Shown here piece after piece: positions 5,505-5,913 of a stretch of DNA of 21,912 nucleotides. This DNA is from a virus (Duplodnaviria; Heunggongvirae; Uroviricota; Caudoviricetes), in IMG/VR virus record IMGVR_UViG_2778261446_000009, positions 1-21,912 of that record. One strand, written 5' to 3'. Made by a program: the position numbers and the translations under genes. Below the pieces are notes generated by a model. The model was not told the origin of the DNA. It saw only the letters and a program-made list of their open reading frames with translations, and searched no databases. Each line of letters starts with the position of its first letter. Position 1 is the first letter of the stretch.

Positions 5505-5564
5505 TATCCTTTAGGAAGCGACACATTACCATCTGGTATCCTGCTCAAAACTAAGGAGGTTGGT

Positions 5565-5894
5565 GTGTTAGAAATAGTCGTACTCGCTCTTGGGATATCC
5601 TGTTGCGTACTATATGCAGGGTTAGCTGCCCTCAAGAAACAGGTTAAGGAATTAGATCGCTCACATGAAATTGATACAAAAATTGCGCGATTAACAGAAG
5701 AGAATAAACACTTAAAAAATTCCATAAGGACACTAACTGATGACAACTACAAACTGTCCCATGCATTGGCTAAGTGGGAAATAGTAAGTTATGAAAGAAT
5801 GACCGACATGATTTTTTCGTCTTATATGGCTACAAAATCTCCTGAAACATCAGGAAAAGCAATAATTGCAGCCATTGAAAAGAGAATTAAATAG
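5565..5894 (+). CDS. Small membrane-anchored coiled-coil protein (109 aa), function unknown; candidate moron or superinfection-exclusion-type product
   Basis: Consensus-strength SD TAAGGAGGT at 5552-5560, 5 nt before the GTG at 5565. N-terminal hydrophobic segment LEIVVLALGISCCVLYAGLAAL followed by a charged heptad-like region. Same strand as, and 60 nt after, the CI-like gene. AT-rich. Confidence 0.55.
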   Translation: MLEIVVLALGISCCVLYAGLAALKKQVKELDRSHEIDTKIARLTEENKHLKNSIRTLTDDNYKLSHALAKWEIVSYERMTDMIFSSYMATKSPETSGKAIIAAIEKRIK

Positions 5895-5913
5895 CCTTCC
5901 TTGGTGTTCATTT

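What the first reader, a model, noticed from the sequence alone, without database searches (positions are those of the whole stretch)
5505..5913. Small membrane-anchored coiled-coil protein co-transcribed with the CI-like repressor
It has one of the strongest SDs in the window (TAAGGAGGT), a GTG start, an N-terminal transmembrane-like segment and a coiled-coil-like tail. It is AT-rich and converges on gp16 with no intervening terminator. Plus-strand genes embedded antisense in a late operon are classic lysogen-expressed morons (superinfection exclusion, injection blocking, abortive infection). Paired with a non-cleavable repressor, this could be a compact immunity/exclusion module. No homolog was recognised by eye.
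Basis: inference. Interest (0 to 1): 0.5.

Follow-up and report, generated by a model that had tools for sequence, protein, structure and literature searches.

The report
Small membrane protein in P22's sieA slot
This is a real, conserved 109-residue membrane-anchored leucine-zipper protein of unknown function that sits exactly where P22-like prophages normally carry the superinfection-exclusion gene sieA, so it is probably another prophage-expressed envelope protein that keeps rival phages out, though this is untested.

Summary
ORF 5565-5894 (+) has a GTG start, the only AAGGAGGT in the window, one N-terminal transmembrane helix, a five-heptad zipper, 36.7% GC, and converges on gp16 with no terminator.

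It is a real gene: dN/dS is about 0.2 against distant homologues, and it belongs to phrog_8100, "unknown function". The family is tiny and confined to P22-like prophages of E. coli, Salmonella, Klebsiella and unnamed metagenome sources.

The main result is positional. The ORF is an ORF-precise replacement of sieA. The roughly 35-bp block before it is 97% identical to the block before P22 sieA. The same block precedes SieA type A, HK620 hkcB and at least nine other unrelated, mostly envelope-targeted ORFs. E. coli HS carries the same CI-like repressor followed by SieA type B, which has been tested experimentally.

In all 46 loci examined the gene converges on gp16 and never co-occurs with SieA or HkcB. 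Its upstream neighbour varies, so the pairing with the CI-like repressor is incidental.

The most likely role is a prophage-expressed inner-membrane dimer that interferes with incoming P22-like phages. I put the exclusion function itself at about 0.4. No function was tested and none is known for the family.

The parts
5530..5567 (+). Conserved left-hand block of the slot: promoter-like element, 5' leader, SD and start codon. It is shared by many unrelated ORFs at the sieA position.
   Evidence: The block matches 90 phage records. It is 97% identical to the sequence just before P22 sieA and 94% identical to that before HK620 hkcB. Homology to phage JEP4 and E. coli AHB29 ends at 5574 and 5568; homology to L020 and SE1-type phages starts at 5534 and 5526.
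5534..5542 (+). Extended -10-like element TGgTATCCT; predicted promoter of the cargo gene.
   Evidence: The pattern T-G-n-T-A-n-n-n-T is invariant in all nine aligned upstream regions, including the distant Klebsiella, L010 and L017 homologues, while the sequence between it and the SD differs among them. Where the gene lies alone between two minus-strand genes (SI8, L010), a promoter must lie in this short spacer. This is prediction only. P22's annotated putative PsieA abuts this block on its upstream side.
5552..5560 (+). Shine-Dalgarno sequence TAAGGAGGT, 4 nt before the start codon.
   Evidence: AAGGAGGT occurs only here in the window. It is conserved in all alleles of the slot.
5565..5894 (+). 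Coding sequence of the 109-aa protein (12.3 kDa, pI 8.9), a member of phrog_8100.
   Evidence: phrog_8100, E = 7.7e-70, full length. dN/dS is 0.16-0.22. A 99.7%-identical copy is annotated WP_000890120.1 "hypothetical protein" in E. coli CFSAN004176.
5574..5633 (+). Codons 4-23: the single transmembrane helix. No Lys or Arg precedes it and four follow within 15 residues, which predicts an N-out / C-in orientation.
   Evidence: Hydropathy. The charge tally across eight family members shows 0 K/R on the N side and 2-5 K/R on the C side in every case. E3 and K24 are nearly invariant.
5670..5777 (+). Codons 36-71: a five-heptad leucine zipper with Asn at two 'a' positions (N47, N61). A parallel dimer is predicted.
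   Evidence: Heptad register and column conservation. The best PDB sequence matches are GCN4 zippers (E = 0.016), with N47 aligned to the GCN4 'a'-position Asn. There is a sub-threshold Pfam bZIP_1 hit. Model pLDDT is 95-97 over this stretch.
5778..5891 (+). Codons 72-109: the most conserved part of the family (EIxSYExMTDMIFxSYMATKSPETSG..IIAAIExR). It forms a helix-loop-helix and is presumably the functional surface.
   Evidence: 24 of the 35 invariant columns lie here. The model shows a loop at 91-96 and a helix at 97-108. No match was found in Pfam, NCBIfam, PADLOC or PDB.
5895..5904 (.). Right-hand boundary motif CCTTCCTTGG, immediately after the stop codon.
   Evidence: CC[ATG]TCC[ATG]TGG lies at or next to the stop codon in 77 of 114 loci that carry unrelated ORFs in this slot. 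The background rate is 0.002 per 55-nt stretch. Its role is unexplained.
5914..7755 (-). gp16 DNA-ejection protein gene, the convergent downstream neighbour.
   Evidence: Pfam family Phage_P22_gp16 on the homologous genes. It is convergent in all 46 loci examined.
4863..5504 (+). CI-like HTH plus S24-like repressor. It is the upstream neighbour in this window only and is not part of the gene's conserved context.
   Evidence: Pfam HTH_3 and Peptidase_S24. Ala replaces the catalytic Ser. The pairing is seen in 2 of 40 IMG/VR loci and in all six places shown, out of 15 contigs carrying the exact protein.

Best explanation
The ORF is a single-gene cargo cassette (moron) in the sieA slot of a P22-like prophage. 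This short plus-strand position lies between the ejection-protein gene 16 and the immI/tailspike region.

Shown:
- It is a real gene under purifying selection.
- It uses the same conserved SD and start block as sieA.
- It has replaced sieA precisely from start codon to stop codon.

Inferred from sequence:
- It is transcribed in the lysogen from the TGnTAnnnT extended -10-like element at 5534-5542. In this window there may also be read-through from the repressor gene.
- The product inserts into the inner membrane through residues 4-23, with the N terminus outside and the rest in the cytoplasm.
- It dimerises in parallel through a GCN4-like zipper (residues 36-71).
- It presents a conserved C-terminal helix-loop-helix about 5 nm below the membrane.

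Inferred from position only:
- Like SieA, it protects the lysogen against superinfecting P22-like phages. It would do so by disturbing the gp7/gp20/gp16 DNA-delivery conduit, or the emerging DNA, at the inner membrane.
For: Gene reality
-.

Slot identity
- The 34-38 bp before the ORF are 97% identical to the sequence before P22 sieA.
- In a P22-versus-L020 blastn, homology stops at codons 1-2 and resumes 6 nt before the stop codon. Window-versus-AHB29 homology stops at 5568 and resumes at 5885.
- The E. coli HS prophage has a 213-aa repressor identical to the window's over all 213 residues (flanking DNA about 99% identical), followed by a 212-aa protein carrying the SieA motif FNRYPGEARKFNK.
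- PMC10883804 (section 13) showed that HS1 SieA type B excludes P22, using its gene plus 106 bp of upstream DNA.
- AHB29 carries SieA type A at the same place.

Conserved context
- All 46 loci have the gene convergent on gp16, none has SieA or HkcB, and the partner gp16 ranges from 36% to 100% identity.
- The same holds in Klebsiella, L010 and L017.

Cargo character
- GC is 36.7% against 47.8% for the window.
- Presence/absence differs between near-identical prophages: JEP4 lacks the gene.
- At least 12 ORF classes follow the same block, and by rough scoring most carry a TM segment or a signal-peptide-like N terminus.

Architecture
-.

Precedent for expression
- P22 sieA is transcribed at a low level in lysogens and rises on induction (PMC10883804, section 21).
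Against: - No sequence or fold similarity to SieA: one TM against three or four, and no FxRYPxEAxxFNK motif.
- Position alone does not fix function. The slot also holds secreted and soluble proteins of unknown function.
- The predicted cytoplasmic orientation puts the conserved domain on the far side of the membrane from the periplasmic gp20 part of the conduit.
- There are no expression data for this gene, and the promoter is only a prediction. P22's annotated PsieA lies just upstream of the shared block, and that stretch is not shared by the window.
- In HS1 the TGnTA element is degraded, so the HS1 experiment does not validate it.
- The gene is rare: 17 of 5,426 complete E. coli genomes.
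- A few copies are truncated or frameshifted.
Confidence: 0.45

Rival explanations
1. It is an anti-phage protein that acts after DNA entry, by abortive infection. The membrane-anchored dimer would sense a phage product and then depolarise or otherwise disable the cell, in the manner of RexB or SieB-type systems.
For: - It is a small bitopic membrane protein able to oligomerise.
- The predicted cytoplasmic domain could meet phage proteins made after entry.
- It is an AT-rich cargo gene in a prophage.
Against: - There is no partner gene; the slot holds a single ORF.
- There is no PADLOC match above noise.
- The only characterised gene of the slot blocks entry rather than acting after it (PMC10883804).
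Confidence: 0.15
2. It is a lysogenic-conversion factor aimed at the host rather than at phages. For example, it might modulate the envelope, cell division or stress responses, and it occupies the slot only because the slot provides expression in lysogens.
For: - The slot carries at least 12 unrelated cargo ORFs, 11 of them uncharacterised, including a YobH-like protein and secreted proteins.
- Weak architecture-level hits to DivIC and ZapB reflect a TM-plus-zipper design also used by division proteins.
Against: - Those Pfam hits are far below threshold: 17 bits against a 28.9-bit cut-off.
- The family is confined to P22-like prophages and always lies next to gene 16.
Confidence: 0.2
3. It serves the phage's own lytic cycle, as an accessory for injection, lysis timing or membrane attachment. 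An i-spanin-like or holin-like role is one version of this.
For: - An N-terminal TM followed by a coiled coil is also the design of Rz-type i-spanins.
- P22 sieA transcription rises on induction (PMC10883804, section 21).
Against: - The window has its own Rz gene (21089-21556, Pfam Phage_lysis, E = 1e-29).
- The charge distribution predicts the opposite orientation to Rz.
- Near-identical prophages and the phage JEP4 lack the gene and carry other ORFs in its place, so it is dispensable.
- It lies antisense to the late transcript.
Confidence: 0.08
4. This is the first reader's version: the small protein and the non-cleavable CI-like repressor form one functionally coupled immunity/exclusion module that is transcribed together.
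For: - The two genes are on the same strand, 60 nt apart, with no terminator between them.
- The pairing recurs in all six places shown, out of 15 contigs carrying the exact protein.
Against: - The repressor is followed by SieA type A, SieA type B or a 62-aa ORF in other prophages.
- 38 of 40 IMG/VR loci carry the small gene without the repressor.
- A mosaic joint lies exactly between the two genes, at 5526-5574.
- The gene brings its own conserved upstream block.
Confidence: 0.07
5. It is a chance ORF, or a decaying remnant with no function.
For: - Some databases leave it unannotated, as in SE1 and ST160.
- A few copies are truncated.
Against: - dN/dS is about 0.2.
- 35 columns are invariant across proteins that are 50-98% identical.
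- Start position, SD and length are conserved from E. coli to Klebsiella and in a phage whose gp16 is only 36% identical.
Confidence: 0.02

Closest known systems
P22 SieA superinfection-exclusion protein (types A, B and C; phrog_7745)
   Same: - Same genomic slot, strand and convergence on gene 16.
- Same upstream SD/GTG block, 97% identical over 34 nt.
- AT-rich and located in the inner membrane.
- Mutually exclusive with this gene in all 46 loci.
   Different: - No detectable sequence similarity.
- SieA has 162-212 aa with 3-4 TM helices and the motif FxRYPxEAxxFNK. This protein has 109 aa, one TM helix and a leucine zipper.
- SieA's function has been demonstrated (PMC10883804); this protein's has not.
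HK620 HkcB / epsilon34 gp14 (phrog_5962, unknown function)
   Same: - Same slot and same upstream block.
- Same size, 107-109 aa.
- Same design: an N-terminal TM with no preceding basic residue, then a coiled coil, then a short conserved C-terminal motif.
   Different: - Not demonstrably homologous. hhalign probability is about 1%, and the only pairwise similarity is in the TM and coiled-coil stretch.
- The conserved C-terminal motifs are unrelated: WLxNVGxIATSTRDKLNPSMDD against SYExMTDMIFxSYMATKSPETSG.
HK97 gp15 (my recollection of Cumby et al. 2012, J Bacteriol; not checked here)
   Same: A small prophage-expressed moron product in the inner membrane that blocks DNA entry of related phages. 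It is a precedent that very small membrane proteins can be exclusion factors.
   Different: It comes from an unrelated phage type (a siphovirus), occupies a different genomic position, and its sequence was not compared here.
Rz-type i-spanins (Pfam Phage_lysis)
   Same: An N-terminal membrane anchor followed by a long dimeric coiled coil.
   Different: - No Pfam match.
- Opposite predicted orientation.
- No o-spanin partner.
- The window has its own Rz gene at 21089-21556.
GCN4-type leucine zipper
   Same: Five heptads with Leu at 'd' positions and Asn at 'a' positions. GCN4 chains are the best PDB sequence matches (E = 0.016).
   Different: The resemblance is a coiled-coil pattern only. There is no basic DNA-binding region of the bZIP kind, the protein is membrane-anchored, and the match is sub-threshold.

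Membership tests
phrog_8100 (phage protein family of unknown function) | Full-length match to the family profile | tested here: met
   E = 7.7e-70, residues 2-109 against profile positions 2-109 of 109. The distant member P0017 also matches, at 3.2e-16.
SieA (phrog_7745) | Sequence similarity to SieA types A or B | tested here: not met
   phrog_7745 was not among the PHROG hits for this protein at E <= 0.01. In tblastn searches, the SieA queries matched nothing in any locus that carries the small gene, including its own ORF DNA.
SieA (phrog_7745) | Three or four transmembrane helices and the cytoplasmic motif FxRYPxEAxxFNK (PMC10883804, section 13) | tested here: not met
   There is one hydrophobic segment, and the motif is absent from the sequence.
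SieA (phrog_7745) | Position between genes 16 and 9 of a P22-like prophage, on the strand opposite to the late operon | tested here: met
SieA (phrog_7745) | Blocks DNA injection by P22-like phages | not testable with these tools
   This needs plating, lysogenisation and K+ efflux assays.
HkcB (phrog_5962) | Sequence or profile similarity | tested here: not met
   hhalign probability is about 1% (E = 0.056 over 24 columns). phrog_5962 was not hit.
Moron (Hendrix-type cargo gene) | Present or absent between otherwise near-identical phages, with deviant base composition | tested here: met
   JEP4, HS1 and AHB29 share 99% identical flanks but lack the ORF. GC is 36.7% against 47.8%.
Moron (Hendrix-type cargo gene) | Own promoter | tested here: inconclusive
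   A conserved TGnTAnnnT element is present, but the simple sigma-70 scan did not report it, and there are no transcript data.
Moron (Hendrix-type cargo gene) | Own terminator | tested here: not met
   No plus-strand terminator-like site lies downstream, and the downstream RNA fold has z = 0.15.
i-spanin (Rz) | Pfam Phage_lysis match, N-in orientation and a partner o-spanin | tested here: not met
   No Pfam match. The charge bias predicts N-out. The window's own Rz is at 21089-21556.
bZIP transcription factors | Pfam bZIP_1 score above the gathering threshold, including the basic region | tested here: not met
   17.0 bits against a 27.6-bit cut-off, and only the zipper part aligns (residues 34-65).

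The most novel reading that the evidence does not exclude
phrog_8100 would be a new, minimal class of superinfection-exclusion protein, unrelated to SieA. It would be a single-pass, zipper-dimerised inner-membrane protein that blocks the P22-type gp7/gp20/gp16 DNA-delivery conduit from the cytoplasmic face. More broadly, the sieA position would be a plug-in slot: fixed expression signals, a fixed right-hand motif, and at least 12 interchangeable envelope-directed ORFs. That would make it a ready-made library of untested anti-phage proteins.
Probability: 0.3. Interest if true: 0.6.

Novelty: new variant of a known kind. Interest (0 to 1): 0.4.

Why it matters
How P22-like phages move DNA across the inner membrane is still unclear. 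So is how SieA stops them while tolerating great diversity in gp16 and gp20 (PMC10883804, section 20).

A 109-residue dimeric protein in the same slot would be a much simpler tool than a 3-4-TM protein for mapping the vulnerable step, through escape mutants and pull-downs. Even if this particular ORF is not an exclusion factor, the slot points to a dozen uncharacterised, mostly envelope-targeted prophage proteins. They can all be tested with one cloning design, because they share fixed signals and swappable ORFs.

Tried and rejected
- **Fold search:** Foldseek against the PDB with the AlphaFold model gave 0 matches. The model is essentially one long helix, so further fold searches were judged uninformative.
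- **Family libraries:** Pfam, NCBIfam and PADLOC gave only sub-threshold coiled-coil noise: DivIC, bZIP_1, ZapB, LmuB.
- **Exhaustive profile search:** a search of 1.84 billion representative proteins found only five family members; three weak hits are coiled-coil or low-complexity proteins.
- **Species-representative genomes:** the scan found no confirmed homologue, consistent with the gene's rarity.
- **Homology to HkcB:** rejected by hhalign.
- **Spanin:** rejected.
- **Cleavable signal peptide or lipoprotein:** rejected by reading the sequence. There is no basic n-region, Lys-Lys follows the hydrophobic stretch directly, no conserved AxA site exists, and the Cys residues are not in a lipobox and are not conserved.
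- **Functional terminator for the late operon:** the minus-strand hairpin at 5838-5857 is not conserved. It is present in close relatives, takes a different form in L010, and is absent in L007 and L017.
- **Known RNA families:** Rfam gave no match anywhere in the window.
- **Literature:** Hofer et al. 1995, on the sieA promoter, is not held in the library. No paper on hkcB or on this family's function was found.

Full report
**1. What is in the sequence**

- The window is a P22-like (Lederbergvirus) prophage with its late operon on the minus strand. gp20 is at 7752-9167, gp16 at 5914-7755 and the tailspike gene at 553-2448.
- The finding covers the plus-strand ORF 5565-5894: 109 codons with a GTG start.
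- TAAGGAGGT lies at 5552-5560. AAGGAGGT occurs nowhere else in the window on either strand, although a single occurrence is not unusual by chance (33 of 100 shuffles have one).
- Residues 4-22 form one strongly hydrophobic segment, with mean hydropathy 2.43.
- Residues 36-71 form an uninterrupted heptad pattern with Leu, Ile or Trp at 'd' positions and Ile, Asn, Ile, Asn, Leu at 'a' positions.
- AlphaFold, given the 12-sequence family alignment, predicts a helix over 2-90, a loop at 91-96 and a helix at 97-108. Mean pLDDT is 84.8, reaching 95-97 over the zipper.
- The ORF is 36.7% GC against 47.8% for the window.
- Its stop codon is 19 nt from the stop codon of gp16. No plus-strand terminator-like site follows, and the downstream RNA folds no better than shuffles.

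**2. It is a real gene**

- Homologues exist in Salmonella phages SE1, ST160 and SI8 at 83% amino-acid identity. The gene is unannotated in SE1 and ST160.
- More distant homologues occur in a Klebsiella quasipneumoniae prophage (70% identity over the conserved region; 52% in the family alignment) and in two metagenome-derived P22-like contigs (52% and 35%).
- Pairwise dN/dS against the distant copies is 0.16-0.22.
- 35 alignment columns are invariant, most of them in the C-terminal third: KWEIxSYExMTDMIFxSYMATKSPETSG..IIAAIExR.
- The start codon is at the same position relative to the SD in all copies, as ATG in two of them.
- The family equals phrog_8100, "unknown function". It has no Pfam, NCBIfam or PADLOC model.
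- An exhaustive profile search of 1.84 billion representative proteins found only five family members.
- 17 of 5,426 complete E. coli genomes carry the gene, annotated as "hypothetical protein", for example WP_000890120.1.

**3. It is an allele of the sieA slot**

- DNA to the left, up to 5574, is 99% identical to E. coli phage JEP4. DNA from 5526 rightward is 86% identical to SE1-type Salmonella phages. A mosaic joint therefore lies at the ribosome-binding site.
- The 38-nt block 5530-5567 matches 90 phage records. It is 97% identical to the sequence immediately before P22 sieA, 94% identical to that before HK620 hkcB, and 100% identical to that before epsilon34 gene 14.
- In blastn comparisons, homology between P22 and a prophage carrying the small gene stops at codons 1-2 and resumes 6 nt before the stop codon. 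Homology between the window and E. coli AHB29 stops at 5568 and resumes at 5885. The exchange is ORF-precise.
- AHB29 carries a 164-aa protein with the SieA motif FGRYPGEAKGFNK at that position. E. coli HS carries a 212-aa protein with FNRYPGEARKFNK. Both lie behind a repressor protein identical to the window's.
- The HS protein is SieA type B. [quoted passage not shown]

**4. Context across 46 loci**

- I examined 40 IMG/VR loci, the window and five others. In all of them the small gene is convergent on gp16. The gap is about 20 nt, and in Klebsiella and L010 the two genes overlap. None of the loci contains SieA, HkcB or the JEP4 62-aa ORF.
- The partner gp16 ranges from 36% to 100% identity, so the gene is not tied to one ejection-protein type.
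- The upstream neighbour varies. It can be P22-type mnt/orf59a, a divergent hkcC-like gene, the tailspike gene directly, an Arc/Mnt-like gene (L017), a 103-aa ORF (Klebsiella), or the CI-like repressor. The repressor pairing occurs in 2 of 40 IMG/VR loci, in the window, and in all six places shown, out of 15 contigs carrying the exact protein.
- The pairing with the repressor is therefore one of several arrangements and not a module.

**5. Expression signals**

- Across nine upstream regions, including the three distant ones, the pattern T-G-n-T-A-n-n-n-T (5534-5542 in the window) is invariant, while the sequence between it and the SD varies.
- This looks like an extended -10 promoter with a roughly 20-nt leader.
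- In SI8 and L010 the gene is the only plus-strand gene between two minus-strand genes, with 240 and 135 nt of spacer. A promoter must lie there.
- This remains a prediction. The simple sigma-70 scan did not report the element. P22's annotated putative PsieA abuts the shared block on its upstream side. In HS1 the element is degraded.
- In this window, read-through from the repressor gene is also possible.

**6. Likely mode of action**

- All family members, and the HkcB family too, have no Lys or Arg before the hydrophobic segment and 2-5 within 15 residues after it. By the positive-inside rule this predicts a short N terminus outside and the remaining 85 residues in the cytoplasm.
- The zipper has conserved Asn at two 'a' positions, which is the GCN4 pattern associated with parallel dimers. 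GCN4 chains are the best, though sub-threshold, PDB sequence matches.
- My picture is a parallel dimer anchored by two TM helices. A roughly 5-nm zipper would hold the conserved helix-loop-helix domain under the membrane.
- Because the ORF replaces sieA behind the same signals, I take interference with incoming P22-like phages at the inner membrane as the most likely role. I put the exclusion function at about 0.4, and the "prophage-expressed inner-membrane cargo of the sieA slot" part at about 0.9.
- Against this reading:
  - There is no similarity to SieA.
  - The slot also holds soluble and secreted proteins.
  - The predicted orientation faces away from the periplasmic part of the conduit.

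**7. Rivals**

I considered five alternatives:
- an abortive-infection effector;
- a host-directed conversion factor;
- a lytic-cycle accessory, including an i-spanin, which is rejected because the window has its own Rz at 21089-21556 and the orientation is opposite;
- the coupled repressor module, contradicted;
- a chance ORF, contradicted.

**8. The slot as a whole**

- An exact-pattern scan of IMG/VR for the 29-nt block was capped at 119 loci. It showed the block in front of at least 12 unrelated ORF classes:
  - a 129-aa protein with a signal-peptide-like N terminus (22 loci);
  - phrog_8100 (19 loci);
  - HkcB (17 loci);
  - SieA type A (10 loci);
  - a 62-aa two-TM protein (10 loci);
  - seven further classes.
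- All are AT-rich, and by rough scoring most have a TM segment or a signal-peptide-like N terminus. Only SieA has a known function.
- A second conserved element, CC[ATG]TCC[ATG]TGG, lies at or next to the stop codon in 77 of 114 loci, against a background of 0.002 per 55-nt stretch. In HkcB it lies inside the last codons (PSMDD). Its role is unexplained. It may be a remnant of an ancestral hkcB 3' end, or a boundary element.

**9. Verdict**

- The gene is already catalogued but uncharacterised. If it excludes phages, it would be a new structural class within a known kind of system.
- Interest is moderate, at 0.4.

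Noticed in passing
These include SieA type A, HkcB, phrog_8100, phrog_2651, phrog_21338, phrog_7294, phrog_10450, phrog_19844 and a YobH-like protein. All are AT-rich, most are envelope-targeted, and only SieA is characterised.
   Followed up: partly
window 5895-5904; the stop-codon region of the slot ORF in 77 of 114 loci: The motif CC[ATG]TCC[ATG]TGG lies right after the stop codon of unrelated cargo ORFs, or inside the last codons in HkcB. It is far more frequent there than the background rate. It is also present in the distant locus L017. 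Its function is unknown.
   Followed up: partly
window 4863-5504 (+): The CI-like repressor sits in the immI region, divergent from an Arc-like gene and an antirepressor gene. It has Ala where lambda CI has the catalytic Ser149 and keeps the Lys. It therefore probably cannot autocleave. A protein identical to it is found in the E. coli prophages examined (HS, AHB29) and in phage JEP4; the surrounding DNA matches 390 E. coli genome records, many of them at only 80-90% identity.
   Followed up: partly
L002 5066-5254 (phage JEP4): Phage JEP4 has an unannotated 62-aa ORF with two hydrophobic segments (phrog_21338) in the slot, behind the same block. The phrog_8100 homologues in SE1 and ST160 are likewise unannotated.
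   Followed up: partly
window 13213-14508 (-), stop codon at 14071-14073: The coat-protein gene carries an in-frame stop codon after residue 145 (...GLSG*DFVS...). The same split is called in the NCBI assembly contig L012. The prophage may be defective, or the stop may be suppressed or a sequencing error.
   Followed up: partly
window 5838-5857 (-): A terminator-like hairpin with a T-run lies on the late-operon strand, inside the codons for SPETSG. It is present in close relatives, takes a different form in L010, and is absent in L007 and L017. It is probably a by-product of the codons.
   Followed up: yes
window 20259-20744 (-): A 161-aa ORF with a T5orf172/MUG113 domain lies between the lysis genes and the terminase genes. 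It looks like another inserted cargo gene.
   Followed up: no
window 4764-4862: This is the divergent promoter region between the Arc-like/antirepressor operon and the CI-like repressor gene. A minus-strand promoter-like site TTGACT-17-AATAAT lies at 4841-4813. ACTCA..TGAGT inverted repeats could be operators.
   Followed up: no
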